Assembly (NCBI GenBank): GCA_964562685.1
Contig: CAZLUP010000003.1
Coordinates: 31,586 to 95,585 of the forward strand
Direction of reading: 5' to 3'
DNA length: 64,000 nt
Origin: an uncultured bacterium
Lineage (GTDB): Bacteria; Cyanobacteriota; Cyanobacteriia; Cyanobacteriales; Xenococcaceae
Below the pieces are notes generated by a model. That model saw only the letters and a program-made list of their open reading frames with translations. It did no database searches and was not told the DNA's origin. Below, piece after piece: positions 13,527 to 46,723 of the stretch. Made by a program: the position numbers and the translations under genes. Within the stretch, counting starts at the first letter, position 1, and every line of letters begins with the position of its first letter.

Positions 13527-13544
13527 CCAATATTTTAAGCTGGA

Positions 13545-14143
13545 AATAAAATTACAGAAAAAACGGGATGTTTGAAAGCCAACTGGCTTTAGCCGTTGGA
13601 TGAAAAACGACTCGGCAACGGGGCGTTGACATGGGCTTGAAGTAAATTCAAGCCACAGCCCCTCCTTAAAAGAGCCTACTAAAGATACAATTTCGATACC
13701 AAATCTTCATAAAATAAAGATGGAGATTGTCGTATACTTTTTCTTGAGTAGTCCAGTCCAAGTCAGTGATTGACTTAGCCGACAATTAAACTAAAGGCAT
13801 AAAGCGAGACTGGTAATAGTGGCGCGAAAAACCACTCTAAAAACGTATGGACTCTAGCCGAGTACCGAAAACCAGTAAAATACAATTTCTTGTAAACAAC
13901 TACTGTAAGGCGGGGCGCGCCTAAACAGAATAATCAACGCTTGGGGAGAGACGACCACTGGGGACATAATGCTAATTTCTGGGTACTTGCACCGTTAGGT
14001 AGGGGTAGTTGGGATTAGGGTGAGGGATACGCCTCCTTTATGTTTTTAAGTCTTGCTCGATGAACCAAGAATCCCACGAATTCTATTCGTGTGGAGCGTC
14101 AAAATAAGATAAGACCGTAGTCTCGTTAGACTTCGGTTTTTTT
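13545..14143 (+). ncRNA. candidate large structured non-coding RNA (class unknown)
   Basis: No ORF of 60 aa or more on either strand. Visibly more G+C than the other spacers. Contains multiple hairpins (e.g. 13620-13662 GGGGC..GGCTTGAA gtaaa TTCAAGCC..GCCCC) and ends in a terminator hairpin plus T7. Confidence 0.3.
14114..14143 (+). terminator. rho-independent terminator
   Basis: ACCGTAGTCT (14114-14123) pairs with AGACTTCGGT (14128-14137). The stem is 10 bp with 1 mismatch and a 4-nt loop, followed by a run of 7 T. Confidence 0.6.
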
Positions 14144-14174
14144 CTATTAATGTTTAGTATCGTTCAATTTCTTT

Positions 14175-14525: not shown

Positions 14526-14626
14526 AGATAACAGTGGTAATTTTCTGGGGGAGAAGCAATATTTTGATTTTTGTTAATTGTTAATAGTTGGTCATTCCGC
14601 GCGCCTTCGGCAGGGTTGATTGTTTG

Positions 14627-14657
14627 TCCGCAGATAAACACTGATAAACGCTGATAG
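14627..14657. repeat. short dispersed repeat (GTCCGCAGATAAACACTGATAAACGCTGAT), partner at 54501-54530 in inverted orientation
   Basis: 27 of 30 nt are identical to the reverse complement of 54501-54530. Confidence 0.7.
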
Positions 14658-14803
14658 AGTTATAATTTTTTCCCTAGCTTTTACCCAGATAAACTTTGTT
14701 CTGAGAGCAGCGAAGGAACAGATAATTGATAGATTTTAGGTTAATTGTGACTTGAAATGTATTGGAAGGGTCTAAGAATTACTATAAACTTTTCTAATTA
14801 AAA

Positions 14804-27726: not shown

Positions 27727-29910
27727 TTAAGACCAATTTAATTCCATGCCAAGGTACTCCTCTAACTGGGTATTATGACTTCTAAAAAACTCACTTAGAT
27801 TTTTTTGAAACTGTACGTCTTGATAATTGTAAGAACCGACATTATGCTTTTTAAATTGTAGATTTGGATTATCAGCCAAGTTGAGAAAATGATAAATTTG
27901 TTGCATGGTTTGTTCTGGTTCTGCCAATAACTGTTCATTAGTTAAAATTAAAAGTTGTTTTTTAGAAAATACTTTCAACCATCTTTTAAGAGTATGAATA
28001 TATAAACCGCCTAATAAATAAATTGATTTTTTTTCTCGGTAAAACTGTTCAATCTGCTCTGGAGAGTCAAGCTCGTTAAGCATTTTTAATTCAGAATTAA
28101 TTGCTACTTCTAAAGAATTATTTTCCCAACCATGCTTGAGACGATGATAATAGTGAGAAATGGCTCTTTCAACAGGATTTCTCAAAATAGTAATTAATTT
28201 AATCTGAGGAAATAAAGCAAAAACTTGTTCTTGAATATCACTAATTAAATAAGAAGGGGTAGCTTCTCCTGTAATAAAATTCGTCCCTTCAGGAATTGCA
28301 GGAAAATGAGATAAATACCAATTAAGATCTGGTTGTAAATAATCACTGCGATTGAAATATCCTACTTCTTTCTTTACGGCTGGTAAGATTTGAGGATGTT
28401 GTGATAAATAATGATAAAGAGAGGTTGTGCCAGCTTTTGCTGCTCCAATAATTAGAAAATTAGGTCCTTGAGACTGTTTAAAATTCCAATGTTTTTCGAC
28501 AAAATGTGGTCGATTTTGGCTGACGATAATATAACAAGCATGACGATAATGATTAGCTGCCTCGTCAAATTTTTCTTGTTTAGTTAGTAAATCTCCTATA
28601 GTAATGTAATATTCTGAAGGGAAACTAGTTTCTCTTTGTTGTGCTTGTTGGTAACAATTAAGAATTTGCTCGATTTGATTAGGATCAATTTTTTGAATAT
28701 TTCTAATTTTAGTATAAATAGATTTGATGTTTGGTTGAATTTCAATTGCTTGCAAGTAAAATTCAATAGCTTGATTCCATTTTTTTTGTTTTTCAAAAAT
28801 TGTACCTAAATGATTATAAAATTGACCAATTTTATAATTTCTATTTTGTTCATGTCCCAGCCAAGTCAATTCAGGATCAATTTCTAAAGCTTTTTGATAA
28901 CTCTGCATAGCTAAAGACCAATTTTTTTGCTGAAAATAAATTTGCCCTAATTGCTCAAAAAAGAAAGCATTTTCTGTACTAACATCGATAGCTTTTTGAT
29001 AAATAGCGATCGCTTGTTCCCATTCTCCTTGTTTAAGATAAATTTGTCCTAATTGATGATAAGATTCCAGATAACTAGGTTCGATTTCAATAGCTCGAAG
29101 ATAAGAATAAATTGCTTTGTCTAGATAATTTTGTTTAGTATAAGCTAATCCTTGTTCATAATATAATTGGGCTGAGTCTGGATATAATTGTGTTAAAAGA
29201 AGAGGTTTGAGGATACCAATATTTCTCAGGGTTTTGACTATATTATGTTCGTTACCATCATAGGCTTGGAGGGTCACATTGTGGCATCCTTGAAGACGTG
29301 CTGCATGAACTGTGTCTAAATGATTTTCTCGACAAAAATAAATGTAAAATTGAGTTTTAATCTTGTTTTTATCTTGCCAGAGCTTTAGTAAATCAAAGTA
29401 TTTATTGGAAGTTTCAGGATTAAAAGATTTATATAATTTATTTATCTGAGATTGCCAACGATTATCGCCAAAAATAGACCGATTTTTAGGGTCAATAAAA
29501 GTTTGAGGAGAAAAAGCGATCGCAGCATCTGCTTCTAATAAATAGCCGAATAAAATTGCTGCATATCCTCCAGCAGAGTTACCAGTAACTACTACTTTTT
29601 GAATTTGTTCTTTTTGAATAAAATCTTTTAAATAACTAACAATTTGTTCAATATTATCTCCTACTAATTTAATTCCGTTTTGATACCAACTTTGCAAACA
29701 ATCTCTTAAAAAGATTTTTTTTATTTCAAAGTCTGAGGTAATTCGAGAAAATTCATAAGGAGGAATTCCCATTCCTTGAGAAATACCACCACAAGTAATC
29801 AATAAAATATTACTGTTATACTGACAATCTATCTGAATACCTTCTGCTTGTTGTAAACTTTTATGGGTTTGTTCTCTTAATTCGCTTTCGGCAAAACTTG
29901 CAGCAGTCAT
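27727..29910 (-). CDS. tri-domain protein: alpha/beta-hydrolase-like N-domain + TPR repeats + sulfotransferase
   Basis: GNSAGG nucleophile-elbow-like motif (N-terminal domain). TPR units (AIYSYLRAIEIEPSY...). 5'-PSB loop GAAKAGTTSLY and 3'-PB motif ILRNPVERAISHYYH. Confidence 0.8.
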   Translation of the reverse strand: MTAASFAESELREQTHKSLQQAEGIQIDCQYNSNILLITCGGISQGMGIPPYEFSRITSDFEIKKIFLRDCLQSWYQNGIKLVGDNIEQIVSYLKDFIQKEQIQKVVVTGNSAGGYAAILFGYLLEADAAIAFSPQTFIDPKNRSIFGDNRWQSQINKLYKSFNPETSNKYFDLLKLWQDKNKIKTQFYIYFCRENHLDTVHAARLQGCHNVTLQAYDGNEHNIVKTLRNIGILKPLLLTQLYPDSAQLYYEQGLAYTKQNYLDKAIYSYLRAIEIEPSYLESYHQLGQIYLKQGEWEQAIAIYQKAIDVSTENAFFFEQLGQIYFQQKNWSLAMQSYQKALEIDPELTWLGHEQNRNYKIGQFYNHLGTIFEKQKKWNQAIEFYLQAIEIQPNIKSIYTKIRNIQKIDPNQIEQILNCYQQAQQRETSFPSEYYITIGDLLTKQEKFDEAANHYRHACYIIVSQNRPHFVEKHWNFKQSQGPNFLIIGAAKAGTTSLYHYLSQHPQILPAVKKEVGYFNRSDYLQPDLNWYLSHFPAIPEGTNFITGEATPSYLISDIQEQVFALFPQIKLITILRNPVERAISHYYHRLKHGWENNSLEVAINSELKMLNELDSPEQIEQFYREKKSIYLLGGLYIHTLKRWLKVFSKKQLLILTNEQLLAEPEQTMQQIYHFLNLADNPNLQFKKHNVGSYNYQDVQFQKNLSEFFRSHNTQLEEYLGMELNWS

Positions 29911-30019
29911 CTTTAAATTTCTCTTCTATATTTACCTGATGGATAAATTATCTAGAGGAAGGGAAAAAAGAGAATTCTTCCCCTATATAAATAGCAACAA
30001 TTAGGATAAGTTAATTTTC

Positions 30020-31489
30020 CTAATCCCAGTCAAATTTCATTCCTAAAAATTCTTCTAATCTTTGATTGTGAGGTTGAAAACATTCCGCTAGAAGCTGATG
30101 CATTTCTGGGTCAATATTAGAATAAGAACCAGCATTGTAAGTTTTATAATCTTTAAGTTGATAATTTGGTAAACCAATAAAATCAAAAACTTGATTCAGC
30201 GTAGCTGGCGTATTTTGATAAAAGTCTTCGCTTTTTAAAATCAAAAACTTCTCTTTAGGAATAATTGACATCCATTGCTCTAAAAAATAAATATAAACAC
30301 TTTCTAATAAACAACCAGAATTACCTTTTCTACTTAAATTTCCATCAAAAGAAGGTTGTGACATTTTTTTTATTAATTCAATTTCATCTGCGATCGCTTC
30401 TTTTAAAGAACGAAATTCTGCGCCAACTTTACGCCAGTGATAATATTGAGAAATAGAGCGGTCTATTGGATTTCTCAACATCACAATTAATTTCATGTCA
30501 GGAAATAATTCGAGAATTCTGGGAGCTACTTCTGGATAATAAAGATGATCAGGACTACCTTCACCAGTGACATAATTTTTTCCTTCAGCAATGGCAGGAA
30601 AATGAGCTAAATACCATTCTTTACCAGCATCAAAATTAAAATTAAAGAATTTAACTTCTTTTTTAAGTGCAGGAACAAATTGAGGATGAAAAGTTAAATA
30701 TTCATAAAGAGAAGTTGTTCCGCAACGCATCGAACCAATAATGACAAATTTCGGTTCTTGTCCTCTTTTTCCTGCATCCCAAGCTTGTTCAATAAACTTC
30801 GGTTTTAGTTTTAAATTTTGTCGATAACTAGCATTTTGGTAACAACTTATTGCTTCATCTAAACGACCTAATTTAGTTAAAATATCTCCTAAATTAGAAT
30901 AACCAAGTAAATAATCAGGACTTTTCCGAATTACTTCTTGATATGGTTTAATCATTCTTTCTAGTAATTCAGGTGAAAGTTTTTCTCGTTGAACTTTAAT
31001 TAATAAACGATCATGAGGTTGCCAAAATTCAGGCGCGATCGCAATTGCTTTTAAATATGCGTCAATTGCTGCTAAAGTATCACCTTGGCGATTATATAAA
31101 TCTCCAATATAAAGATAAAACCATTTACGATCTAAATCTAATTCAACTGCTTGTTCATAAATCGAGATCGCATCTTGAAAAAGATTTTTTTTAGCTAAAG
31201 TTTCGCCAATCTTTTGATATAAACTAATTGCTTTATCTTGGTGATTTAATTTAATTAAATACCTGCCCAATTCTTGGCAAGAATTAAAGAGTTTAGGTTC
31301 TAACTCCACAGTTTTATGATAATAATTAATTGCTTCTTGCCAATAACCTTTTTTAGTTAGGGCTTTGGCTAAACGATGATGAGCTTGAGCCGATTTTGGT
31401 TCAGTTTTAACAGCACGACGATAAGCAAAAACAGCTTCTTCTAAATTACCTTGTTGTTCTAAGGTAGCTCCTAATTGTAAATCTTTCAT
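30020..31489 (-). CDS. TPR repeat + sulfotransferase fusion protein
   Basis: N-terminal TPRs. GSMRCGTTSLYEY and MLRNPIDRSISQYYH PAPS-binding motifs. The C-terminus is paralogous to that of the 27727-29910 product. Confidence 0.8.
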   Translation of the reverse strand: MKDLQLGATLEQQGNLEEAVFAYRRAVKTEPKSAQAHHRLAKALTKKGYWQEAINYYHKTVELEPKLFNSCQELGRYLIKLNHQDKAISLYQKIGETLAKKNLFQDAISIYEQAVELDLDRKWFYLYIGDLYNRQGDTLAAIDAYLKAIAIAPEFWQPHDRLLIKVQREKLSPELLERMIKPYQEVIRKSPDYLLGYSNLGDILTKLGRLDEAISCYQNASYRQNLKLKPKFIEQAWDAGKRGQEPKFVIIGSMRCGTTSLYEYLTFHPQFVPALKKEVKFFNFNFDAGKEWYLAHFPAIAEGKNYVTGEGSPDHLYYPEVAPRILELFPDMKLIVMLRNPIDRSISQYYHWRKVGAEFRSLKEAIADEIELIKKMSQPSFDGNLSRKGNSGCLLESVYIYFLEQWMSIIPKEKFLILKSEDFYQNTPATLNQVFDFIGLPNYQLKDYKTYNAGSYSNIDPEMHQLLAECFQPHNQRLEEFLGMKFDWD

Positions 31490-31549
31490 AAGTTAAATAC
31501 CTTGGCTAAAATTGAATTAATTCTGAGAAAATACTTGAGAGCAAACTAC

Positions 31550-34500
31550 TTATTTCTGCTTGTTTTTAATCAAAGCTAAAATTTCCTGTTCGTAGCGAGC
31601 AAAAATATTTTGCCAATCATAGGCTTGCTCGACTAATTTACGACCATTGACACTTAATCTTGTCTTTAATTCAAGATCTTTACTAACCTGTATCACCGCT
31701 TCAGCAAATTCTTTGGGAGTATCACGAATTAAAATGTTTACTCCATCAGTTACCTCTAATCCTTCGCAACCAAGACTGGTAGAAATCACTGGTAAACCCA
31801 TTGCCATAGCATGAAGAATTTTGATCCTTGTCCCACTACCCAAACGGATGGGTACAATTGCAATTGAGCAATTCTGAGCTACATCGCTCATATTTTTGGG
31901 ACTAGCGACGATTTCAATATCTGAATAACGAGTAGCTAAAGCTTGAATTTCAGCAGAAGGTTCGCGTCCGGCAATACAGAAAGGAAGCTGAGAATTTTGT
32001 TGACGAATTAGTGGTAAGATCTCTTCAGCAAAGTATAGTACAGCATCAATGTTGGGATAATAAGTCATTGTTCCCATGTACAACATTTTGTGTGCCTGAC
32101 TATGGTTGACAGGAGCAATGTTGCGGGTGTCTATCCCATTCTTAACTACGATCACTTTACTGTTCGGACAACGACTGAGCAATTCTTGTCGATCATCTTC
32201 ACTAACTACAGTAGTTAAAGTAAATTTAGACCAAGTTTTGTTTTCGTAGGCTTCAAGTAATTTAGATTCCCGTTCAGAATCCAAAAACACTCTAACTGCT
32301 TCTACATCTGTTGCAGCCGTTGCAATATCGGACTCGGTAATCGTAGCGCATTGTTTGAGAATTCTTGACTCAATATTATGTTCATTTAAGATTGTCAGAT
32401 GATTTTTGAACAGTTCATGATAGGGAGTAGCAAAAATAAAATCAAATAAAACTGCATCGAACTTAACTTGACTAAATTGTTGGAGAACTTTCCACATATT
32501 CCAAGTTCCCCATTGGTAGATTTGTTTTTGTTGATCGACTCGACGTGGTGCTAAAGGTACACCTAGTTTGACCATAATGGCGCGATCGCAATACTCTTGT
32601 AAATCCTCTTCAATTTGATAATCAGCCTCATCAAAAATAAAAGAAACAACTGTGAGATGATGGCGACTCCCTAAATATTTGATTTCTTCAAACATCCGAA
32701 TCGCTCCCCCTGTATTGGGAGGATAGGGAGGATAGGGAGTAATTAGCAAAATTCTCAGCTGATCATGGCATTCAGTTTGCTTTAACTGCTCACAATAATC
32801 TAGAACTTGCTGCCAACGGTGTAATAATTGCTGAGATTGTTCTCTATTTTCGTAAAATCCTGCAAAATCTGGATTAAGTTCAATTGCTCGACTATAAGCT
32901 GAAATTGCCTCCGCTAAATCCCATCTACCCTTCAGTGCATCACCGTAACCATTGTAATACCAACAGTTATTCGGTTCTAATTGTAAAGCTTGACGATAAC
33001 ATTCGATAGCGCGATCGAGATTAGCCTGTTTTGTCAAAGCATTACCTAATTGAAAATAAGCTTCTGGATAATTAGGATGAAATTCTAAAGCTGTATTTAA
33101 AGCAACAATTGCCAGATCGATCTGATTTTCTCCTAAATATGTTTTAGCCTTGGCGAGAAAAGCTTCAGCTTTTTCTGGTTGTTCTTTTGATGATGCTGGA
33201 AGACTACTAAGTAAAAGTTTTTGATTAAACTGTGCTTGTTCGGGTAATAACTTGGCTAATTGAGTCGATATTTCACGATTTTGAGGCTGGTATTGAAGAG
33301 CTATTTGATAATAAACGATCGCTTTTTCTAGCTGATTCTGTTTAACTAAGGCATTACCTAACTGTAAATACAGTTTGCCATTATCTGGTTGCAGCGCGAT
33401 CGCTTTATAATAATTGTGAAGATTATCAGGATTTAATTGAATCTCGCGCTGATAATAACTCAAAGCTCGATCCGAATCAATTTTAGAGCGATGTCCTAAG
33501 GCATCAGCTAATTTAATTCCTACCGTCGGCAAATCTGGCTTAAGTTCAATGGCTCGACGATAAGCTACTACTGCTTCATCCCATTTACCCAAGTTACTAA
33601 AAATTTCGCCTAAATTATAATAAGCCCAAGGAAAATCGGGGTTTAATTCACTCGCTCTTCTAAAAGCTACCGCAGCCTCTTCCCATCGGCTTAATTGAAC
33701 TAAGGCATCACCTAAATTATTATGTGTCCAACAAAAATCATCTTTGACTTGAATTGCTGCTTGATAAGCAGTAACCGCTTCTTCCCATCGGTATACTTTA
33801 CTCAGTGCATCACCAAGATGATGACAAGCTTCCCAATAATCAGGTTGTAGTTTGATCGCTTGTTGATAACAGATAATAGCATCTTGCCATTGTTTTTGTT
33901 GAGTGAAAACAAATCCAAGACGATAATGATGTAGAGCAATTTGAGAATTATATTGAACCGCCTTGCGATAATATTGAATTGCTTCTTCTAATTTTCCTTT
34001 GCTATGTAAAATTTCTCCTAGATGTAAATAAGCTTCTGCTAAATTAGGAGCGAGTTCCAAAGCACGACGATAACAAGTTATCGCTTCATTTAGTTGATTG
34101 TGTTTGACAAAAGCATTGCCCAATTGCAAATGTTCTTCTGCTTTGACACTGCCCGGCTCCAAACTATAAGCTTGATACCAATATTTAATTGCCTCAGCAG
34201 ATTGATCCGCTTTTTCTAACGCCCTAGCTAAATTACGATAAACACCTGCCAATTGAGGATTTAATGTAATTGCTCGCTGATAACAGTTAATCGCTTCTTG
34301 CCACTGTTGTTTTTGAGCGTATAAACTACCTAAATTTGAGTAAATAGCTGCCGAGTTAGGATTGATTTGAGCTTTTTGTTGATATTGAGCAATCTTTAAA
34401 TCAATAGCTTCAGTAGGAACAGGACTTGTTTGTGTAGTTATTTCCTGTTTAACTGGGGAACGCAAGTCCGTGCCGTCTCCGTTCGGGAACGACTCGGAGT

Positions 34501-35842
34501 TCAACTCCGAGTCGCAAGCCCGAAGTGATTCCCACCCGTTGAACGGCGGAGTACCTGCGATTTGATTGGGAGACTGCAAAACATTCTCACTAGTTGATAG
34601 CAATTTTTGTTGAAGAGGATTATTTCCTTTTAATCTATTTTGATAGTGCCAAGCTTGCTCATAATAAGTAGCAGCTTCTTGCCATCGTCCTAATTGTTCC
34701 AAAACTTGAGCCAATTTTTGATATCCTTCTTGTAAGGAAGGCTCTAATTTAATTCCATAACGATAGTGAATTATTGCTTGTTCTAACTGATCTTCTTCTC
34801 TAAGCCAATCTGCTAACAGAATATGATCTTTGGCCTTCGCTCGCTCTGGCTCTAAGCTCAAAGCTTGATGATGATATTGCCAAAATTTACTCGTTTCTCC
34901 TAACTGTTGATAAACTTTCGCTAGATTTTCATAAGCACCTGCAAATTTGGGGTTAATAATAATCGCTTTTTGATAATATTCAATTGCCTGTTGCCATTGC
35001 TTTTGCCCAGCATATAAACTGCCTAAATTTGCATATACTTCAGCTAAATCTGGTTGTATAGCGATCGCTTTAGCATAATAACCCATTGCTTCGGCAGTTT
35101 TACCACTTCTTTGCAGTGCATTGCCCCAAATTTTATAAGCCTCCGCAGAATTAGGCTCAATTTCCAAGACTCGCTGACAGGCAACTATTGCTTGTTGCCA
35201 TTCTTGGCGATCACAATAAGCTAAAGCCTGTTGTAAATATACTCGAGCAGCTTCTAATCCTAAGCTATTAGCAATTTCAGGTTTGTTAGAATGAGGCTCT
35301 TGATTAGTAGCCGATTTTTCAATTAATTTAAAAGAAAAAGACGATTTTTCTGAAGAATAAACTGCTGATAGCTGTCTATATTGAGGTGAATTAGGATCAA
35401 AGTCAGGAAGTTGTAATTTTGTTGAGAAGCTGCGATGGGAATGCTCTTCTGTTTCGCTGGTGTTGACAGTTAGGTGTGACAAAGAATTTTTTTCCAACTG
35501 TGACAGTGAAGTCTTCCCTTCAGCAGTCCAAGAATTGTTGAGCATAATCGCCTTGCGATAGTGAATCATTGCCTCGGGAATTTTACCGATTTTTTGCAAA
35601 CCTACCGCCAATTTTTGACGAGCCAAACCTAAATCTGGTTCAATTTCTACTGCTTGACGATAAAGCTTAATCGCCTCAGTAAACTTACCTTGTTCCCAAA
35701 GTCGATCTGCTTGATAAATTTTAGTACTGGCTAAATCTGGTAATTTTAAGTAAGAGTTAACATCTGGAGACTTTGGATTAACATTGTCATTATTTTTGAC
35801 AAAAGCAGCAGAATTCAACAAATTTTTCAGACGATCAAACAT
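31550..35842 (-). CDS. giant TPR array fused to a C-terminal GT4-type (GT-B) glycosyltransferase
   Basis: About 1000 aa of TPR units (AEVYANLGSLYAGQKQWQQAIEYYQKAI...). C-terminal LRILLITPYPPYPPNTGGAIRM...GSGTRIKILHAMAMGLPVISTSLGCEGLEV. Confidence 0.8.
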   Translation of the reverse strand: MFDRLKNLLNSAAFVKNNDNVNPKSPDVNSYLKLPDLASTKIYQADRLWEQGKFTEAIKLYRQAVEIEPDLGLARQKLAVGLQKIGKIPEAMIHYRKAIMLNNSWTAEGKTSLSQLEKNSLSHLTVNTSETEEHSHRSFSTKLQLPDFDPNSPQYRQLSAVYSSEKSSFSFKLIEKSATNQEPHSNKPEIANSLGLEAARVYLQQALAYCDRQEWQQAIVACQRVLEIEPNSAEAYKIWGNALQRSGKTAEAMGYYAKAIAIQPDLAEVYANLGSLYAGQKQWQQAIEYYQKAIIINPKFAGAYENLAKVYQQLGETSKFWQYHHQALSLEPERAKAKDHILLADWLREEDQLEQAIIHYRYGIKLEPSLQEGYQKLAQVLEQLGRWQEAATYYEQAWHYQNRLKGNNPLQQKLLSTSENVLQSPNQIAGTPPFNGWESLRACDSELNSESFPNGDGTDLRSPVKQEITTQTSPVPTEAIDLKIAQYQQKAQINPNSAAIYSNLGSLYAQKQQWQEAINCYQRAITLNPQLAGVYRNLARALEKADQSAEAIKYWYQAYSLEPGSVKAEEHLQLGNAFVKHNQLNEAITCYRRALELAPNLAEAYLHLGEILHSKGKLEEAIQYYRKAVQYNSQIALHHYRLGFVFTQQKQWQDAIICYQQAIKLQPDYWEACHHLGDALSKVYRWEEAVTAYQAAIQVKDDFCWTHNNLGDALVQLSRWEEAAVAFRRASELNPDFPWAYYNLGEIFSNLGKWDEAVVAYRRAIELKPDLPTVGIKLADALGHRSKIDSDRALSYYQREIQLNPDNLHNYYKAIALQPDNGKLYLQLGNALVKQNQLEKAIVYYQIALQYQPQNREISTQLAKLLPEQAQFNQKLLLSSLPASSKEQPEKAEAFLAKAKTYLGENQIDLAIVALNTALEFHPNYPEAYFQLGNALTKQANLDRAIECYRQALQLEPNNCWYYNGYGDALKGRWDLAEAISAYSRAIELNPDFAGFYENREQSQQLLHRWQQVLDYCEQLKQTECHDQLRILLITPYPPYPPNTGGAIRMFEEIKYLGSRHHLTVVSFIFDEADYQIEEDLQEYCDRAIMVKLGVPLAPRRVDQQKQIYQWGTWNMWKVLQQFSQVKFDAVLFDFIFATPYHELFKNHLTILNEHNIESRILKQCATITESDIATAATDVEAVRVFLDSERESKLLEAYENKTWSKFTLTTVVSEDDRQELLSRCPNSKVIVVKNGIDTRNIAPVNHSQAHKMLYMGTMTYYPNIDAVLYFAEEILPLIRQQNSQLPFCIAGREPSAEIQALATRYSDIEIVASPKNMSDVAQNCSIAIVPIRLGSGTRIKILHAMAMGLPVISTSLGCEGLEVTDGVNILIRDTPKEFAEAVIQVSKDLELKTRLSVNGRKLVEQAYDWQNIFARYEQEILALIKNKQK
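34470..34557. repeat. GC-rich palindromic mini-element inserted in-frame in the TPR-GT4 gene
   Basis: Termini GTGCCGTCTCC...GGAGTACCTG. Internal perfect hairpin GACTCGGAG ttcaa CTCCGAGTC. Translated as part of the linker peptide GTPPFNGWESLRACDSELNSESFPNGDG. Confidence 0.6.
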
Positions 35843-36237
35843 AATTAAGCTGAGATAGCGAAGAGAAATGAATAACGTTCAGCTTGAAACAACAATAATC
35901 TTATTGAAACTACAGTAGAAATTACTTGCGTGAAAACACTAGATTTTAGTTAATAATTCGGATTAATTTCAGCTAAATATTTTCATGATCTCTGTAAAAA
36001 CTTTTAAGAAGCAAAATTCAGCCCAAAATTAACAACAGATTGCTAGTATCGTCGATAAAAATAAATATTTCTTGAAAGAATTAAACATTAATTAATACAT
36101 ACTCAATTATCACTACTCAAATGCGAGCAGCTTCGCGCTTCGCGTAGTGATTGCTATTCTAGAAATCAATTAAGCTATAGGATAAAATTAGACCGACTTA
36201 ACACAATTGAGCGCAGGTTTCAGAAGGAGCAAACATC

Positions 36238-36981
36238 TTGAGTTGGCGACTAAAATTATCCAATTGGCTTTCGGATGGTATTTTAGATAAATATCAGCAA
36301 CAAATAGAATCAGCAAAAGCTAAATTAAATCAAACAGAATCGGAACTAAATAATTTAAAAATTCAATTAAAACAATCTCAGGTAGAACTACAACAAACTC
36401 TGGCACAACTCCAAATTAATCAAGGTTTTCAGATAGAATTAGGCGAAAAACAAATTCAACTGCAACAAACCAAAGCTCAACTTCAGCAGTGTCAAGCGCA
36501 ACTTCAACAGAAACAAGAACAGTTAGAAAAGTCCCAAACTCAACTCCAGCAAACTCAAACAAAATTAGTCAATTCTCAAGATTGGCTACAACAAATTCAG
36601 GCTCCTATTCAGGTGGTAGAAGTTAAACGTTTACCGCAAAAAGATTTTGAGGCTTTATGGGGTTTTGGAATCGGTTCTCCTCTTCCAGAAAGCCAAGCTA
36701 TTGGGGGTTCTCTTTTATTTAAAGGATGGGTATTAGGCAAAAAATCTCTAGCTAAAAAAGTTAGAATTACTTATCAAGGACAAATGTTGATTGAAACTCC
36801 AGTTGAACAACCTCGCCCAACGATTACTCAGTATTATCCGGATATACCAGCAGCAGCTAACAGTGGTTTTGAAACTCCTTTTTCAGTGACAGCAATGGGT
36901 TCGGAAGCTGAATTAGAGTTACAAGCTGTTTTAGAAGATGAAAGTATTATTCCCCTTAGTGTTATTTACCTAAAACGCTAA
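36238..36981 (+). CDS. Gln-rich coiled-coil protein with beta-rich C-terminal domain
   Basis: TTG start preceded by AAGGAG. Iterated (L/T)QLQQ heptad-like repeats over about 110 aa. The only plus-strand gene inside the cluster. Confidence 0.55.
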   Translation: MSWRLKLSNWLSDGILDKYQQQIESAKAKLNQTESELNNLKIQLKQSQVELQQTLAQLQINQGFQIELGEKQIQLQQTKAQLQQCQAQLQQKQEQLEKSQTQLQQTQTKLVNSQDWLQQIQAPIQVVEVKRLPQKDFEALWGFGIGSPLPESQAIGGSLLFKGWVLGKKSLAKKVRITYQGQMLIETPVEQPRPTITQYYPDIPAAANSGFETPFSVTAMGSEAELELQAVLEDESIIPLSVIYLKR

Positions 36982-37309
36982 AGTTGAATATTTATTTTTA
37001 GTTTGGCATATTATTTCACAGCAATTTTTATCAAGATACGAAAAAATTAGCAGGACAACAAATAGCCTTAAATTTAAATATTTTGAATTTTCGCTTCTTG
37101 ACTTAAGAAGAGGGAAAGATTGCGTTTTAATACCAATTTTCTCAAGTAATGAGAGGCTAGATAAATCTTAATGAAACTCGCGAAGACAGAGAGCAGAAGG
37201 CAGTTTTAATTTAAGTAATAAATTAAATTATTTAAATAGGCAAAAAAAAGTAGGTAAAAATTAGAAATTACCCACTCTCAAAAATCTTATTTGCAATATT
37301 ATCTATTAA

Positions 37310-38152
37310 TTATTGAGCAGCACGATCATAACATTGTTCTGCTTCTTGTTCTCTACCTTGTTTCTTTAAAATATCTCCGATTAAACGGAAAATATAGATA
37401 GCATCTGGTTTAACTTCTATAGCTTTTTGATAACAGCGAATTGCCGTATCTAACTGATCTTTTTGCTGAAAAACATCTCCTAATTTCTTGTATGCCGAAC
37501 CAGAATCGGGCTTAAGCTGAGTTGTTTTCTGATAATAACGAATTGCCTCATCAAGTTGTCCTTGTTTGAACAATGCGTCCCCTAAAGATAAATAAACTTT
37601 AGCCGAATCTGGTTTCAGTTGAATCACTTTTTGATAATAACTAATCGCTTCATCAAAACGTTCCTTTTTCATCAAAGTATCGGCATACTTAGTATAAAAA
37701 CCAGCGTTCCAGTTTGAATTCAATTCTGCTGCTTTTTGATAATAATTAATTGCAGATTCGATCTGATCTTGTTCTTGTAGAAGCAAATCACCTAATTCTT
37801 TATAAACTTTAGCAGGAAGATCGGGTTTTAATTCAATCGCTTCTTGATATGCTGCGATCGCAGCATAAATTTTGTTTTGTTGTTGTAAAACTTTAGCTAA
37901 TTTTAGATATGGAGTATAATTTTCTGGATTTAAACCAATCATGCGTTGATAGCATTTTACTGCTTCTGACCAATTTTGCTGAGATTCATAAATTTCAGCT
38001 AACTTGGGTAATGGTTGAGTATAGTTAGGTTTAATTTTAATTGCTTGCTGATAGCTTTGAATTGATTCTTCAAAATTTCCTTGTTCTTTTAATTCATTTC
38101 CTTTTTCAAAATTAGCTTTAGCTTTTTCTCCAGTTTTGTTAATAGAACTCAT
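37310..38152 (-). CDS. stand-alone TPR repeat protein
   Basis: Consecutive 34-aa units, e.g. AINYYQKAAELNSN and AISYYQKVIQLKPDSAKVY. Confidence 0.8.
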   Translation of the reverse strand: MSSINKTGEKAKANFEKGNELKEQGNFEESIQSYQQAIKIKPNYTQPLPKLAEIYESQQNWSEAVKCYQRMIGLNPENYTPYLKLAKVLQQQNKIYAAIAAYQEAIELKPDLPAKVYKELGDLLLQEQDQIESAINYYQKAAELNSNWNAGFYTKYADTLMKKERFDEAISYYQKVIQLKPDSAKVYLSLGDALFKQGQLDEAIRYYQKTTQLKPDSGSAYKKLGDVFQQKDQLDTAIRCYQKAIEVKPDAIYIFRLIGDILKKQGREQEAEQCYDRAAQ

Positions 38153-38410
38153 ATCTTTTTACCTCATTGATTGTAAATATCGATCTTCAAATTTATAAAC
38201 AAGATTTAGACCATATTTATTAGTTAAAAAACTAATTAATTTTTGCCCAAACCATATTAGTCCAAATTATTTCTATCTTTTTACATACTTGCTATAACTC
38301 CTTGATTGGCTTTGTTTTTATATTCAAAATTAATAGCTTATACTCCTATACCAGCGAATAAATAATACTCAAAATATAAAATAATCTGTTTATAATTGTT
38401 TACGAATACT

Positions 38411-39484
38411 TTATTTTGCCTCAGCCAATTTAACCATAACAAAAGCCATCGCTTCATTTAATAACGATGGAGATAAATCTGTAATTATTTTTTTGATATC
38501 CATATAATTTTTTGATTCTGTAGGTGATTTGAGAAAAAGTCTAAATTTATCTCGAGAAGCAAATCTATCTATTAATTCTAAATTAGACCCATAATAATAA
38601 TCAAATACTTGTTTTTTCTGTTCCAGAGACATAAAATCAATTTTTTCTTGATTAAATCCTCTATGTTGAGCAAATTCTTGTATATATTTAGAGATTTTTT
38701 CTCTTGTCCTAATAGTTTCTTCTTGTAAAAATAACCATGATAGTTCTTCTGTTTCTTTCATAAAAGAAAATATTTTTTGACATAAAATAATTGTTTTGTA
38801 AGAAGGCGATATATTGTAGTTTTTAGATTCTTGCAATAAATCAGAAGGTATCCCTTGAATTCCAATAAAATCAAAAAAGTTACTTAATAGACCACTATTA
38901 GAATATACCAAGTCCTCAAAAGATAAAATATGTAAATAAGAAGGTTGGAAATATTCATCCCAAAAATCGCAAACCTCATTATATTTTAAGGCACGCAAAG
39001 ATAAAGAAAAACGCTCAAACCAAGCATCAAAATTATCAAAAGTTATACCATTTTTTGCTAATTGCGCCCATTGTGAAGATAACCATTGATATTGATTTCT
39101 ATAAATAAAAACCAAATGTAATTCTAAATTATTTGGAAAGCAATCACGTAACTGTTGCAGTTGTTGTTTTTCTGTTATTTGAATAAAATTTTCTGCACTA
39201 ATTATAAAATGCTCTGCATCTGAGTTATTTATTTCTTGTTGAAGGTTATCAAATAAAATATTTTTTCCATTTTTAAAATTATTTGTTAATACTTCTAAAG
39301 CAAGTTCATGATGAACATAAGAATTGCCTAATTCACCTCTACCAGTTTTTAGGTATTTTATCCCCATTTTTTCTAAGTTTTTTTCCTGTTTTTTTAACCA
39401 GTGTTGAATAGTTGTAGAACCACATTTTTGATGACCAACATGGAGATAAAGTTTTTTAGTGGCAGTCATAATTCCTATTCTCAC
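38411..39484 (-). CDS. hypothetical protein, possibly sulfotransferase-fold
   Basis: N-terminal LYLHVGHQKCGSTTIQ resembles a PAPS 5'-phosphosulfate-binding loop. No clear 3'-PB motif. Very AT-rich gene. Confidence 0.45.
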   Translation of the reverse strand: MRIGIMTATKKLYLHVGHQKCGSTTIQHWLKKQEKNLEKMGIKYLKTGRGELGNSYVHHELALEVLTNNFKNGKNILFDNLQQEINNSDAEHFIISAENFIQITEKQQLQQLRDCFPNNLELHLVFIYRNQYQWLSSQWAQLAKNGITFDNFDAWFERFSLSLRALKYNEVCDFWDEYFQPSYLHILSFEDLVYSNSGLLSNFFDFIGIQGIPSDLLQESKNYNISPSYKTIILCQKIFSFMKETEELSWLFLQEETIRTREKISKYIQEFAQHRGFNQEKIDFMSLEQKKQVFDYYYGSNLELIDRFASRDKFRLFLKSPTESKNYMDIKKIITDLSPSLLNEAMAFVMVKLAEAK

Positions 39485-39531
39485 AAATTACAAAGTTAAT
39501 AATAATTAGACAGAGTTTTTTGTTCAAAAAA

Positions 39532-42210: not shown

Positions 42211-42283
42211 AAATACAAGTTGAATTTGAATTAATTATTGACTTTGAAATAGTTATATATATTTAAATAATTAAAATTTATAA

Positions 42284-45200
42284 TTAAATCATCAAAAACT
42301 TTTTTAAAGAAGCTTTTACTACTTCACAACTATAGGGAATAAGTGCTTCTTGAGATTTTGTTGCTAGCTGATTCCAAATATTTTCATCTTGATAAAGTCT
42401 TAAAATTTGATTAGCAAATTCCTCAGTATTATTTGCTTCTAAAATATTTTCTTCGTGGATTAGATTCATTCCTTCTATCCCAATAGAAGTAGAGACAATT
42501 GGCAAGCCGTATTCCAAACTTTGTCCAATTTTTCCTTTCATTCCTGCGCCATATCTTAAAGGAGAAACAAACACTTTATGGCTTAAAAAATAGGAACTTA
42601 CATCAGAAATATATCCTGGTACAATAATGCGATCGCACTCTAAGTTTTTTACTTCTGGAGTCGGATTACTGCCAAGTAAAGTTACTTTTACTTTTGGTAT
42701 TTTTTCCCATACCAATGGCATAATTTCTTCACACAACCATAACACAGCATCTACGTTGGGGGGATGAGTGTAACTACCAATAAATAAAATATTTTCTCTA
42801 CTATGAAAATCTCTAGTTTCACCTAAATAAGGAGTATGAATATTGGGAATAACTGCTACATTAGAAACGCCTTGCTGTTTTAGTATTTCTTTTTCTACAG
42901 AAGTAACTGTAATAGTCAAATCTGCTTGGTGAGAAATGGTTAATTCCCTGGCTTGCATATTGATCCATTCAGTTGCTGCTTGCATATTTTTTTCTGGAGA
43001 TAATTCCCAAGCACGTTTCATTCTCAAATAATGTAAATCGATAGTGTCGTAGATAATTTTGATATCTGGTTGTTGCCGAATAATTGGGATATATTTTTCG
43101 TTAAGTTCGGGGCGACAAATCCAGGCAAAATCTACTAGAGGTAATCTAGCTTTGATCTGTTCTTCAGGAGTCGTTCCATAACCATCTTGAGTGTAGAGGA
43201 CTTCAATTTGAAGATTTTGTAAAATCGAGGTATAGGGTTCGTCTTTGACACCATTATCGGCTGTAAAGATAACGTGATAGTTAAGTTCTTTAAAGATAGT
43301 TAGAAGATGAAATAGGCGTTTTGAGCCTGATTCTTTGTCATAGCAAGGCATATAACTGTCTATGACTAAAATAGTTTTTTGTCCTGAGTATTTTCTTGCC
43401 GTTTGAGGCACATTTTCAGCACCTTGATTGGGTTGATAAAGTTCCGTTGCTAAGACTGATTGCCATTTTTGTTTAAATTTAGCTGCATTGATGACTTGAT
43501 ATTTTTTAGTACCGCTATGGGTAGAAGTTCCTGATGTGATGCCTTCATAATGTACTACTTCAGACTTTGGTTGATACATTACTTTTAAGCCTAAGCGATG
43601 ACGAATTGCAAAGCATAAGTCAGTATCTTCGTAGTAAGCAGGAGCAAAATCGGTTTCAAAGCCTTTTAAAGCTTCAAAAGTCGCTTTTTTAACCATTAAA
43701 CTTGCTCCCGAACAATAATCTACCTCCCGCAAGTAATTATATTGAGGGTCATGAGGATTATCGTTTCTGCCATAATTCCAACCAGAAGCATCCTGCCAAA
43801 TAATACCGCCAGCTTCTTGAAGAGAGCCTTGAGGATAAACTAGTTTTGAGCCTACTGCGCCTACCTGTTCGTCTTGGAGGAAGACATCAATTAAACTTTC
43901 AATACAGTTGGGGCGAATTTCTGTATCATTATTGAGGAAGTAAAGGTATTCACCTTTAGCTACTGCTGCACCTTTATTGCAAGAATGAATAAAGCCTAAA
44001 TTCTGATTATTATCAATCAAAATTAAGCCTTCAATCTCGCTTAACGTCTCTTGAGTCTTGTCTTGAGAACAGTCATTAATAACGATAACTTCAACTAAAG
44101 TAGTTGCTTGGATGTTTTTGACTAAGGCTTGTAAACATTGAAGAGTGTATTGAAGTTGGTTGTAGACGGGAATAATAATTGAAACCGTAGGGCAATCATT
44201 GTGAGGTAAAACTATAACTGATTGAATAGTGATAGCTTGATTCACTTCGGATGATGGTTGAGGATCACCAGTTACCAGGGATTCAAGAATTTTCTTGACA
44301 TCGGTTTGGGGATTTTGTTTGAGTAAAGTATTGTCTAATCGAATCGAAGCTTCCAAGTTGCGCGGTTGAACTTGCATTGCCATTTGATAGGCGATAACTG
44401 CTTCATCTAATTTTTCTTGCTTGACTAGAGCATTACCTAAACCAATATAAAGTTCTGCATTATATTTATCGATTGCTAATGCTTGATGATAGTTATGAGG
44501 TTCATCAGGATTTTTAGCGATCGCTTGGCGATAACATTGAAGTGCTAATTCGCGATCTTTTTGAATTCTTTGATAAAGAGCATCGCCTAATTTATTTTGA
44601 ATTTTTGGTAAATCTGAGTTGAGTGTAACTACCGACTGATAAGCGGTGATTGCTTCATTCCAAAGTTTGATTTTACTACAAGCTTCTCCTAGGTTGTAAT
44701 GTGACCAAACAAATTCGGGATTCAGTTTAACTGACTGACGAAGAGCATCAACGGCTTCTTGCCATTGTTCGATTTGAATTAGAGCGTATCCTAAATTATT
44801 GTGTGACCAAGAAAAATCTGGATTAATTTTAATTGCCTGACGATAAGCTTCAATTGCTTCATGCCATTTTTTTTGTTTGGTTAAAGCTTCGCCCCAATAA
44901 TGATAGGCTTCCCAGTAATTAGGCTCTAGTTGAATAGCTGCTCGATAATGATCGCTGGCTTTTTGCCATTGTTGTTGTTCAAAGCAAGCTTGAGCAATCT
45001 GATAATGTAGTGGGGCATAATTAGGACTGTTTTTCAGTCCTTGTTGATAACAATTGAGTGCTTGTTGTTTTTGTCCTGCTAAATTAAGTAACTCGCCAAG
45101 ACGCAGATAAGCCTCTCCTAAAGATGGTTGCAATTGAATTGCCTGGCGATAAAGTGCGATCGCTTTGTCAGATTTTCTTTGTTTTAATAACTGATTGCCT

Positions 45201-46723
45201 AATTGTAAATATTCTTCTGCTTTAATTTTTTCAGGTTCTAACTGAATTGCTCGCAACCAATAAGAAATTGCTTTGTTTTCTTCTCCTGACTGGGTTAAAG
45301 CTCTAGCTAAATTACGATAAGCTCCAGCAAAATTAGGATTGAGTTGGATTGCTTTTTGATAATGAGCGACTGCTTTTTGCCATTGTTTTTGTTCTGCATA
45401 GATACTAGCTACATTAGCTTGCGCTTCAGCCGAGTGAGGATTTTGCTCTGCTTTTTGTAAATATTGTTGTAATTTTGAATCAGGGTTTTGGGCTGAGGAA
45501 ATTTGTAATTGTTCTGGACTATGGTGAGAATTTAAAAATTTTTGTTGAATCGGATTAACTGTTAATTGATGAGGATTATTTTTAAGTTCTAAAACTCGCT
45601 GATAATATTTGCTAGCTTGTTGCCATTCGCCCAGTTGTTCTAAGGTGATAGCTAATTTTTGATGAGCTTCAATGGAAGTAGGAGCTAGTTCAATTGCATG
45701 GGAATACTGCTGAAGAGCCTCTTGAAATTTACCTATTTTAAGTAATTGTTCACCCAACTGAAAATGTTGTTGAAAAGCTAACTCGGGTTTGGCTTGTAAT
45801 TGAATTGCTAATTGATTATATTCTCTAACTTTATCTTGGTTGCCTAAATGTTCCCAAACTTTGGCTAAATGCTTATAAACACCAGGAAAATCAGGTTTAA
45901 AAACCAAGGCTTTTTGATAATAATTAAGTGCTAGTTGCCATTGTTGCTTGCTTGCATAAAGAGTACCTAAATTAGCATAAATTTCTGCTAAATCAGGACG
46001 TAATTCTAAAGCTTTAGCATAACAACCAATTGCCTCAGTTGTATTACCAATTCTTTGATAAGCATTACCTAAAAGTTTATAAGCTTCTACTATAGTTGGA
46101 TTGATTTTGAGAGCATTGTGACAAGCTTTAATTACTTCTTCCCATTGCTGATTTTCCCAGTAAATTGTTGCTTGTTCGAGATAAACTTGCGCTACTTCTA
46201 ATTTAGGCATCAAAATTTGAGTATTAGCAGTTATAGCTACTTGAGCTAAGTGGCAGGTACTCCCGAGTTCAACTCGGGAGACGGCACGCATCGGTGTTCC
46301 TCGGTCAGTTTTAGAAGATTGATGTGTCGGCATTTGCTGATATTGAGGTGTAAAATTTTGCCAACTAAAACTAGGCGCAGGTAACTGAATAAATTCAGGT
46401 TGTCTATCTTCGTTTTCAGATTTGATTTGTCTAGGTTTCATTTGAGAAATTGTTGGTGTAAACTTAGCTCGATTTACTTTTAAATTGATAGCATTCAAAT
46501 AATGAGCGATCGCCTCAGTGAAATTACCTTGTTGTCTTAAAATTATTGCTAATTTTTCATGAGTTTCAAGTGAATTGGGTTGAGATTTTAAGACTTGTCG
46601 ATATCCATAAACTGCTTCGTTTAAATTACCAAATCCCCAAAAATCAGTAGTTTGTTCAAACTTGATTGAAGCTAACTCTGAATTAGAAAAACTTACGAAA
46701 CTAGTTGTCGAATCTTCAGACAT
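42284..46723 (-). CDS. giant TPR array + GT2 + GT4-like (GT-B) triple-module glycosyltransferase
   Basis: TPRs to about aa 800. GT2 motifs [24 protein letters not shown] and [10 protein letters not shown]-terminal GT-B motifs [13 protein letters not shown]...[28 protein letters not shown]. Confidence 0.8.
46254..46287. repeat. short copy of the palindromic mini-element, opposite orientation, in-frame in the TPR-GT2-GT4 gene
   Basis: CAGGTACTCC CGAGTTCAACTCG GGAGACGGCAC. Its reverse complement has the same termini as 34470-34557. Translated as part of [11 protein letters not shown]. Confidence 0.6.

What the first reader, a model, noticed from the sequence alone, without database searches (positions are those of the whole stretch)
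34470..34557. GC-rich palindromic mini-element inserted in-frame inside a coding sequence (long copy)
An 88-nt GC-rich block interrupts an AT-rich gene. It has termini GTGCCGTCTCC...GGAGTACCTG, and inside it a perfect 9-bp hairpin (GACTCGGAG ttcaa CTCCGAGTC) is nested in further pairing (TTCGGG/CCCGAA). It is read through without a stop, adding a non-TPR peptide (..GTPPFNGWESLRACDSELNSESFPNGDG..) in a linker between TPR blocks. A shorter copy with the same termini lies at 46254-46287 in the paralogous gene. That copy sits at a non-homologous position and in the opposite orientation, which argues for independent insertion rather than shared ancestry. This behaviour parallels the Rickettsia palindromic elements that insert in-frame into ORFs. 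A 10-mer from the element (AACGACTCGG) also occurs at about 13606-13615 in the putative ncRNA region, which is only a weak link.
Basis: seen in the sequence. Interest (0 to 1): 0.65.

Follow-up and report, generated by a model that had tools for sequence, protein, structure and literature searches.

The report
Nested 54-nt hairpin elements inside genes
The GC-rich block is two small mobile hairpin DNA elements of exactly 54 bases (18 codons), one inserted inside the other, that landed in frame in a cyanobacterial glycosyltransferase gene; related strains still show the empty and the half-filled site, so it is a clean new example of a known phenomenon.

Summary
The anatomy needs revising.

The 88-nt block is the core of a 108-nt composite (34455-34562). 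An outer 54-nt hairpin unit, E1, is split by a second 54-nt unit, E2 (34482-34535), in the opposite orientation just 3' of E1's loop. The "short copy" in the second gene is a full 54-nt unit of its own (46249-46302).

All three states exist at the first gene:
- Stanieria PCC 7437 and NIES-3757 have the empty site.
- A 97%-identical strain and several metagenome strains have E1 alone.
- The window strain has E1 with E2 inside.

Two orthologues of the second gene lack exactly 54 nt.

Contigs from the same population hold further copies with other flanks: about six outer units and three E2 copies, all three nested at the same spot in E1-type units. The units have no terminal inverted repeats and no clear target duplication. 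A subfamily-specific pentanucleotide, T[AG]AC[TC], sits beside one end, and the stems covary.

I infer trans-mobilised, REP/RPE-like hairpin elements, possibly moved by an IS200/IS605- or RAYT-type enzyme; that step is not shown. This is a new lineage-restricted family of a known kind.

The parts
34455..34481 (-). E1, first part on the + strand: the 3' half of the outer 54-nt unit in its own orientation. Sequence GGGGAACGCAAGTCCGTGCCGTCTCCG.
   Evidence: DNA alignment with the E1-only strain L002 and with the empty Stanieria sites. Contigs of X3, X4, X5, X6 and X9 join 34481 directly to 34536.
34482..34535 (+). E2, the nested 54-nt hairpin unit: TTCGGGAACGACTCGGAGTTCAACTCCGAGTCGCAAGCCCGAAGTGATTCCCAC. 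It lies in the opposite orientation to E1 and encodes WESLRACDSELNSESFPN within the gene.
   Evidence: Absent as exactly 18 aa / 54 nt from P0001/L002. The 'skips 54' joints run 34481->34536 in X4, X5 and X9. Single-strand DNA fold -18.4 kcal/mol, z -6.7. Three copies in run X2, all nested in E1-type units.
34536..34562 (-). E1, second part on the + strand: the 5' half of the outer unit, CCGTTGAACGGCGGAGTACCTGCGATT. It contains E1's loop TTGAA, immediately next to the E2 insertion point.
   Evidence: The uninterrupted form in L002 is AGTCGCAGGTACTCCGCCGTTGAACGGCGGAGACGGCAAGGACTGGCGTTCCTC.
34449..34454 (+). TTAACT beside the GRGGAAC end of E1. It is already present in the empty sites of the Stanieria orthologues, and TTAACT or TGACT is present at the same place in the other E1-type copies. 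Candidate target or cleavage motif.
   Evidence: Empty sites read ...T(T/G)AACT|TG.... Other E1-type loci start matching at 34448-34452 although their flanks differ.
46249..46302 (+). ORF2 copy, a 54-nt unit: AGTGGCAGGTACTCCCGAGTTCAACTCGGGAGACGGCACGCATCGGTGTTCCTC. It is antisense to the gene and adds 18 aa (..[17 protein letters not shown]..). The edges are uncertain by 3-5 nt; the following GGTCA (46303-46307) is shared by all ORF2-type copies.
   Evidence: PCC 7437 (P0122/L005) and a Logan strain (P0061/L006) lack exactly 18 aa / 54 nt here. Extra copies with other flanks in X1/X2, X3 and X6. Fold z -3.6.
31550..35842 (-). Host gene 1: TPR-repeat glycosyltransferase (group 1), 1430 aa, intact. 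The composite sits in the least conserved linker, residues about 428-466.
42284..46723 (-). Host gene 2: TPR-repeat glycosyltransferase (family 2), 1479 aa, intact. The unit sits in the N-terminal linker, residues about 141-158.

Best explanation
The block is a nested pair of small, non-autonomous hairpin DNA elements from one lineage-restricted family. Each unit is 54 nt, which is 18 codons.

**Order of events**
- After the split from Stanieria PCC 7437 and NIES-3757, an E1-type unit inserted into a linker of the TPR-glycosyltransferase gene. A related unit inserted, in the other orientation, into a linker of the neighbouring TPR-glycosyltransferase gene.
- Later, only in the window's strain, a third unit (E2) inserted into E1 just 3' of its loop (TTCAACGG|).
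- E2 did the same in two other E1-type copies elsewhere in the genome.

**Why the genes survive**
- A unit of 18 codons cannot shift the reading frame.
- The units are GC-rich, so they carry few stop codons.
- They sit in variable linkers, so both genes stay open and the insert is translated as extra linker peptide.

**Inferred mechanism (not shown)**
The units move in trans as single-strand hairpins. The enzyme would be of the IS200/IS605-TnpA or RAYT (HUH, Y1) type, which inserts without target duplication next to a short specific motif, here T[AG]AC[TC]. The TT[CG]AAC sequence in each unit's own loop resembles that motif. This would explain why units nest in one another.
For: **Shown**
- Three states at one site. 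The site is empty in L003 and L004, holds E1 only in L002 and in X3, X4, X5 and X6, and holds E1 with E2 in the window. Each step is exactly 54 nt.
- The ORF2 site lacks exactly 54 nt in two orthologues.
- Copies are dispersed. Depth rises from 26 to 100-180 across the element in X1, and contigs with unrelated flanks match it. There are extra ORF2-type loci in X1/X2, X3 and X6 and extra E1-type loci in X1/X2, X6, X9 and X15.
- E2 is present three times in X2; the shared unitig has depth 800 against 260. Every copy is nested at the same position of an E1-type unit.
- Locus B carries E1 without E2 in X9 and X15. So E2 entered at least two pre-existing E1 copies.
- E2 is absent from X3 and X6.
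- The hairpins are strong, z -3.6 to -6.7, and the stems covary: 7 of 14 pairs show compensatory changes, for example GCCG/CGGC against CGAG/CTCG.
- The units have no terminal inverted repeats. The E2 junction has no duplication: AACGG|..|CGGAG against AACGGCGGAG in L002.

**Basis of the mechanism inference**
- The flanking pentanucleotide is specific to each subfamily: TTAACT or TGACT for at least 4 E1-type loci and TGACC for 4 ORF2-type copies. It is native in the empty ORF1 site.
- IS200/IS605 and REP biology is taken from PMC6006769 and PMC3733652.
Against: - No transposase of any kind is encoded in the window or in the fetched flanks, so the enzyme is a guess.
- The units have one central hairpin, not the two subterminal hairpins of IS200/IS605 ends.
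- The copy number is low, about nine units per genome, unlike typical REPs.
- The two window copies lie in opposite orientation 12 kb apart. This does not fit a strict lagging-strand bias.
- At ORF1 and at locus B an AGT/ACT triplet stands on both sides, so a 51-nt element with a 3-bp duplication cannot be excluded for E1.
- The ORF2 junction is blurred: 3-4 differences next to one end against the nearest empty sites, which are only 88% identical.
- The three nested E2 copies could have spread by gene conversion between E1 copies rather than by insertion.
- The copy census rests on Logan unitigs and 30-nt flanks, not on a finished genome.
Confidence: 0.7

Rival explanations
1. E1 and the ORF2 unit did arrive by insertion, but E2 reached its three E1 hosts by short-tract gene conversion between E1 copies. 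In this view it was not repeated site-specific insertion.
For: All three E2 copies sit at the identical position and are nearly identical: 0-1 differences in 51 nt. No free-standing E2 copy was seen in X1/X2. The E1 arms give about 27 nt of homology on each side.
Against: 27-nt arms that carry mismatches (3-6 differences between loci) are poor substrates for recombination. The first E2 still needs an insertion event. The junction lies right after a loop motif that resembles the flank motif of the other units.
Confidence: 0.2
2. The units are classical cut-and-paste miniature transposons moved by a DDE transposase: a 51-nt element plus a 3-bp target duplication (AGT/ACT).
For: AGT flanks E1 on both sides in L002 and the empty site has a single AGT. 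Locus B in X9 and X15 also shows ACT on both sides.
Against: The unit ends are not inverted repeats. E2 shows no duplication. In all four ORF2-type copies the two flanking triplets differ in the same way (ACC...ACT), so they behave as part of the unit rather than as a duplication.
Confidence: 0.1
3. The segment is an ancestral linker of the TPR proteins that was deleted in relatives, so it is not an insertion at all.
For: The region is a variable linker that carries other indels among orthologues.
Against: Both outgroup Stanieria genomes and a 72% orthologue lack it. The gaps are exactly 54 and 108 nt, with the intermediate state present. The same sequence occurs at other loci with unrelated flanks, and in a second gene at a non-homologous site in the opposite orientation.
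Confidence: 0.03
4. The hairpins are kept because they act in the mRNA or DNA, for example as a translation pause, an mRNA stability element or a protein-binding site. Their spread would be secondary.
For: The stems covary and the RNA fold of the composite is very stable: -51.5 kcal/mol, z -4.6.
Against: Presence or absence differs between 97%-identical strains, and the gene stays intact either way. Copies occur in either orientation and in both coding and non-coding settings. Covariation is equally expected if a transposase must recognise the hairpin. No Rfam family matches.
Confidence: 0.07

Closest known systems
Rickettsia palindromic elements (RPE) and intragenic REPs of other phyla (Ogata et al. 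2000, from my own knowledge; Di Nocera et al. 2013, PMC3733652; review PMC10969869)
   Same: They are short palindromic repeats found in frame inside intact genes for unrelated proteins. They add a peptide in tolerated positions, are polymorphic between relatives, and are also found outside genes.
   Different: - RPE-1 is about 100-150 bp, occurs in Rickettsia and carries a CGTC tag.
- Here the units are 54 nt, occur in a cyanobacterium, are low in copy number and nest in each other.
- No sequence similarity was tested or found.
REP/REPIN elements mobilised by RAYT (TnpA-REP, Y1 HUH) and IS200/IS605-derived hairpin elements (PMC3116915, PMC6006769)
   Same: All are GC-rich imperfect palindromes without terminal inverted repeats or target duplication, with a short conserved motif beside the hairpin. 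REP-type repeats and RAYT subclasses occur in cyanobacteria, and REP insertions inside genes are reported for subclass 2.4.
   Different: - REPs are usually 20-40 nt, number in the hundreds per genome and are mostly extragenic, with an unpaired GT[AG]G tag.
- Here the units are 54 nt and number about nine per genome. The tag is at best GTAC or GTGG.
- No RAYT or TnpA was seen.
Small dispersed repeats (SDR4-6) of Nostoc and relatives (Elhai et al. 2008, Genome Res 18:1484). The paper is not held in the library, so its features are given from memory.
   Same: These are very small hairpin-forming repeats in cyanobacteria. They are present or absent between orthologous sites, occur inside genes, and are often nested in one another.
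   Different: - SDR units are 21-27 nt and were described in heterocystous cyanobacteria.
- Here the units are 54 nt and occur in a Stanieria-like unicellular lineage.
- Sequence relatedness could not be checked.

Membership tests
Rickettsia palindromic elements (RPE) | Inserted in frame in ORFs that stay intact, with the peptide read through | tested here: met
   Both host ORFs are intact and the units are read through. Orthologues lack 18 or 36 aa.
Rickettsia palindromic elements (RPE) | Sequence homology to RPE families of Rickettsia, with CGTC-tagged ends | tested here: inconclusive
   No RPE consensus was available for comparison. CGTC does occur next to the inner stem of E1 and the ORF2 copy (GCCGTCTCC), but it is partly paired and is missing in the variant copies (GGAGCCTGCTGC). 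The host is a cyanobacterium, so this is an analogy and not membership.
REP / REPIN (RAYT-associated) | Imperfect GC-rich palindrome forming a stable hairpin | tested here: met
REP / REPIN (RAYT-associated) | Conserved unpaired GT[AG]G tetranucleotide at one end | tested here: inconclusive
   The ORF2-type copy starts AGTGG, E2 ends (reverse complement) GTGGG, and E1 has AGTCG. GTAC abuts the inner stem. None is a clean GTAG tag.
REP / REPIN (RAYT-associated) | High copy number, mostly extragenic | tested here: not met
   Unitig depth and distinct flanks indicate about six outer and three nested units per genome. Three units lie in 72 kb of contig, all inside genes.
REP / REPIN (RAYT-associated) | Cognate RAYT gene flanked by the repeats | not testable with these tools
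   None is present in the window or flanks. The rest of the genome is not available.
IS200/IS605-type hairpin elements | No terminal inverted repeats and no target site duplication | tested here: inconclusive
   No inverted repeats at the ends. E2 has no duplication. E1 has an AGT on both sides that could be a 3-bp duplication.
IS200/IS605-type hairpin elements | Insertion 3' of a specific tetra- or pentanucleotide that flanks one end of every copy | tested here: met
   T[AG]AC[TC] lies next to the GRGGAAC end in at least 8 copies. It is specific to each subfamily and is native in the empty ORF1 site. This rests on one empty site; the ORF2 empty sites do not show it clearly.
IS200/IS605-type hairpin elements | Two different subterminal hairpins (left and right ends) | tested here: not met
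   Each unit has one central hairpin.
Terminal-inverted-repeat MITEs (e.g. Nezha) | Terminal inverted repeats of 15-30 bp plus a target duplication | tested here: not met
   The unit ends AGTSGCAGG... and ...GTTCCYC are not complementary.
Cyanobacterial small dispersed repeats (SDR) | 21-27-nt unit; nested insertions; presence or absence between orthologous sites | tested here: inconclusive
   Nesting and presence/absence are met. Unit length is 54 nt, so that feature is not met.

The most novel reading that the evidence does not exclude
This would be a currently active, self-homing family of 18-codon hairpin elements. Each unit carries a copy of its own insertion motif (TT[CG]AAC) in its hairpin loop. 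Units would therefore insert into one another and into matching T[AG]AC[TC] sites, guided by a subfamily-specific motif and a single-strand-DNA (HUH) enzyme. The population sampled here caught a burst in progress: E2 entered three E1 hosts since strains that are 97% identical diverged.
Probability: 0.25. Interest if true: 0.65.

Novelty: new member of a known kind. Interest (0 to 1): 0.45.

Why it matters
It gives an unusually clean natural series at one site in an intact gene: empty, single unit, then nested unit. Each step is exactly 18 codons, and a second locus shows the same second step. This makes the family a good test case for three questions:
- how tiny hairpin repeats move;
- why they nest;
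- how proteins gain linker peptides from selfish DNA.

In practice, such units break short-read assemblies at these points and create strain-specific length variants of surface-polysaccharide enzymes.

It does not reveal a new kind of system. In-frame palindromic inserts (RPE, intragenic REPs) and nested small repeats in cyanobacteria (SDR) have already been described.

Tried and rejected
- **Pattern scans.** GGTACTCCNNNNTTSAANNNNGGAGACGG gave 0 hits in genome contigs and in metagenome contigs, although it matches the window and L002 locally. Those collections therefore lack this lineage, so absence there says little. Looser patterns gave only chance hits: a high-GC Actinomycetota MAG (L012) and an unrelated contig (L013). 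Viral contigs gave 0.
- **Peptide search.** A protein search with concatenated six-frame peptides of the units returned nothing at E<=10. The peptides are too short for a database of 5.8 billion sequences, so that search was wasted.
- **Other collections.** blastn against plasmids and phages gave no match. Rfam has no family on the element.
- **More copies in held sequence.** A hairpin and GC-island scan of the window and about 150 kb of loci found no further copies. The syntenic Stanieria regions have none.
- **RNA evidence.** The RNA runs do not cover the element, so transcription through it is not shown.
- **Adaptation to coding.** Five of six open frames is not more than shuffles give (P 0.15-0.37). 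I dropped the idea that the units are adapted to be stop-free.
- **Rejected readings.** A tRNA-like origin was rejected (loop of 5 nt, no ARAGORN or Rfam hit). So were an intron or intein (far too small) and an assembly artefact (the same structure appears in independent runs and JGI samples).
- **Literature.** The Elhai 2008 SDR paper is not held.


Full report
**Source and setting**

The window is part of a 115.9-kb contig of JGI metagenome 3300037465. It has 34.6% GC and carries the cyanobacterial HIP1 octamer. Its nearest sequenced relatives are Stanieria sp. NIES-3757 and S. cyanosphaera PCC 7437, with 85-88% protein identity and conserved gene order.

The finding lies in a 1430-aa TPR glycosyltransferase gene (31550-35842, minus strand). 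The second copy lies in a 1479-aa TPR glycosyltransferase gene (42284-46723, minus strand).

**Checking the observation**

- The sequence is as described.
- The two "terminal" motifs occur only in these two places, against 0.09 expected for the 11-mer.
- The block is one of six stretches in the window with at least 62% GC over 40 nt.
- The inner hairpin is a perfect 10-bp stem with a TTCAA loop.
- Both genes read through their blocks.

**Anatomy at the first gene**

The protein alignment of the gene with its four closest relatives was decisive:

| Sequence | Identity to window | State at the site |
|---|---|---|
| P0001 (another JGI metagenome) | 97% | lacks exactly 18 residues (WESLRACDSELNSESFPN) |
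| Both cultured Stanieria | 85-86% | lack all 36 extra residues |

The DNA alignment shows the same three states, in gene sense:

- The empty site reads ..CCA|AGTT.. .
- L002 carries a 54-nt unit, E1: AGTCGCAGGTACTCCGCCGTTGAACGGCGGAGACGGCAAGGACTGGCGTTCCTC.
- The window carries E1 plus a further 54 nt, E2 (window 34482-34535), placed between AACGG and CGGAG. That point is directly 3' of E1's loop.

The true composite is 34455-34562.

E2 aligns with E1 only when reverse-complemented. It then shows the same layout: outer stem, 9-10-bp inner stem, TT[CG]AA loop, G(G)CAAG, and a TTCCYC tail. So E2 is a diverged member of the same family, inserted in the opposite orientation.

**The second gene**

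The "short copy" is also a full 54-nt unit (46249-46302). It aligns with E1 along its whole length.

S. cyanosphaera PCC 7437 and an 88%-identical Logan strain lack exactly 18 residues / 54 nt at that place. The left junction is blurred by 3-4 differences from these rather distant empty sites, so the edges are uncertain by 3-5 nt.

If the insertion point is taken as 3' of TGACC, the pre-insertion sequence would encode ..KTDLAQ.. against ..QTALAQ.. in the relatives. That is a plausible amount of divergence. This step is inference.

**Is it a dispersed, polymorphic repeat?**

Exact-pattern scans of the genome and metagenome collections found nothing real. They also failed to find the window's own copy, so those collections do not hold this lineage.

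Public runs do hold it. Laying Logan contigs on the region gave the census:

- **Depth and breaks.** In X1 and X2, the same population as the window, word depth rises from 26 to 100-180 across the element. Contigs break inside it, and contigs with unrelated flanks match it.
- **E1::E2 composites.** In X2 exactly three loci carry one. A shared 38-nt unitig has depth 800 against 260 for single-copy sequence, and three different left and right flanks are seen.
- **Locus B.** One of these loci (left flank CAAGCTGGAATTAC..) occurs in X9 and X15 with E1 but without E2.
- **E2-free alleles of the first gene.** Contigs of X4 and X5 join 34481 to 34536 at this gene, and X3 and X6 also lack E2 there. 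The same join in X9 is seen only in its locus B contig.
- **E2 elsewhere.** No E2-like sequence at all is laid in X3 or X6.
- **ORF2-type units.** They have at least one more locus in X1/X2, and further loci in X3 and X6.
- **Variants.** Some copies have GGAGCCTGCTGC in place of GGAGACGGCAC.

I estimate about six outer units and three nested E2 units per genome. This is a low copy number. The estimate rests on unitigs and 30-nt flanks.

Some copies appear to be intergenic or at ORF ends. At least one more is open in four frames.

**Structure**

- All units fold as strong hairpins as single-strand DNA (z -3.6, -4.0 and -6.7). The composite also folds strongly as DNA and as RNA.
- The inner stem is kept through compensatory changes. 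E1 has CTCC-GCCG/CGGC-GGAG and the ORF2 copy has CTCC-CGAG/CTCG-GGAG. Overall, 7 of 14 consensus pairs show double changes (only four sequences).

**Ends and target**

- The unit ends are not inverted repeats.
- E2's junction shows no duplication, since L002 already reads AACGGCGGAG.
- E1 has AGT on both sides at this gene and at locus B. A 51-nt element with a 3-bp duplication therefore cannot be excluded.
- Every E1-type copy has TTAACT or TGACT beside its GRGGAAC end, and every ORF2-type copy has TGACC there.
- The empty ORF1 sites already contain T(T/G)AACT at the junction.
- E2 sits after TTCAACGG, which is the loop of its host.

A subfamily-specific short motif beside one end that is native in the empty site is the signature of IS200/IS605-type single-strand transposition. 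REP-type repeats and their RAYT enzymes are known in cyanobacteria, including REP insertions inside genes (PMC6006769, PMC3733652).

This is the basis of my mechanistic proposal. It is an inference. No such enzyme is encoded in the window or its flanks. The units have one central hairpin rather than two subterminal ones. The two window copies have opposite orientations.

**Why in frame**

Three independent events each added exactly 54 nt. A unit of 18 codons cannot shift the frame. The scarcity of stop codons (4-5 of 6 frames open) is what GC-rich sequence gives by chance (P 0.15-0.37). Both sites are variable linkers between TPR blocks.

I see tolerance, not adaptation. Translation itself is not shown, because the RNA runs do not cover the element.

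**Rivals**

- **Ancestral linker with later deletions.** Excluded by the outgroups, the exact step sizes and the dispersed copies.
- **Gene conversion.** It could explain E2's spread among E1 copies (0.2) but not its first arrival.
- **Cut-and-paste transposon with a 3-bp duplication.** It fits E1's AGT, but not E2, the ORF2-type flanks or the lack of inverted repeats (0.1).
- **Selected RNA or DNA function.** Not needed, and it is hard to square with presence/absence between 97%-identical strains.

**Comparison and novelty**

The element behaves like Rickettsia palindromic elements and the intragenic REPs described in several phyla (PMC3733652, PMC10969869). In its nesting it behaves like the small dispersed repeats of Nostoc (Elhai 2008, from memory; the paper is not held).

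It cannot be filed in any of these families:

- There is no RPE homology or host match.
- Copy number and tag do not fit REPs.
- Unit size does not fit SDRs.
- Inverted repeats are absent, so it is not a classical MITE.

No match exists in Rfam, plasmids, phages, viral contigs or 185,579 species-representative genomes. I rate it a new, lineage-restricted member of a known kind. Its value is the unusually clear empty / single / nested series.

Noticed in passing
L004:10040-10125 and L006:19882-19925 (Stanieria NIES-3757 and a Logan strain; orthologue of the gene at window 31550-35842): The N-terminus of the orthologue carries a different GC-rich in-frame insert with its own hairpin (GGAGGACAACCCC tcacaagct GGGGTTGCTCC). 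It adds about 28 residues that the window lacks, and PCC 7437 lacks 12 of them. This suggests other small hairpin families also live in these TPR glycosyltransferase genes.
   Followed up: partly
window 14623-14663 and 54493-54533: A 41-nt inverted pair, 88% complementary, lies 40 kb apart: TTTGTCCGCAGATAAACACTGATAAACGCTGATAGAGTTAT. The copy at 14623-14663 lies in non-coding DNA; the copy at 54493-54533 lies just upstream of, and overlaps the first bases of, the ORF listed at 54525. It looks like a second, AT-rich dispersed repeat family.
   Followed up: no
window 63019-63080 (inside the ORF at 62784-63239, minus strand): A GC-rich island with a short hairpin (CTCGGC tgt GCCGAG) and HIP1 sites lies inside a 151-aa ORF of unknown function. 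It is conserved in three JGI samples. It may be another small in-frame insert.
   Followed up: no
window 13527-14174: A 650-nt gene-free stretch lies between ribulose-phosphate 3-epimerase and a SUI1-family gene and contains several hairpins. No Rfam family reaches threshold; the best hits are E 0.26 and 0.91. The 10-mer it shares with E2 (13606) has no extended similarity.
   Followed up: partly
run X5, flanks beside window 34452 and 34483: A hot-spring metagenome holds a contig that matches about 30 nt of E1's arm but has very GC-rich, unrelated flanks (CCCTTTGAGGGCGGGGACGACCCCTT ... GTTGCTCCTCTACGCGGAGCGTCTCGGCG). This may be another nested or composite repeat.
   Followed up: no
window 27727-46723: A cluster of at least six TPR-domain genes is fused or adjacent to glycosyltransferase and sulfotransferase domains, and is syntenic with Stanieria. 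The TPR repeats produce many low-identity direct repeats, which dominate any repeat search of the window.
   Followed up: no
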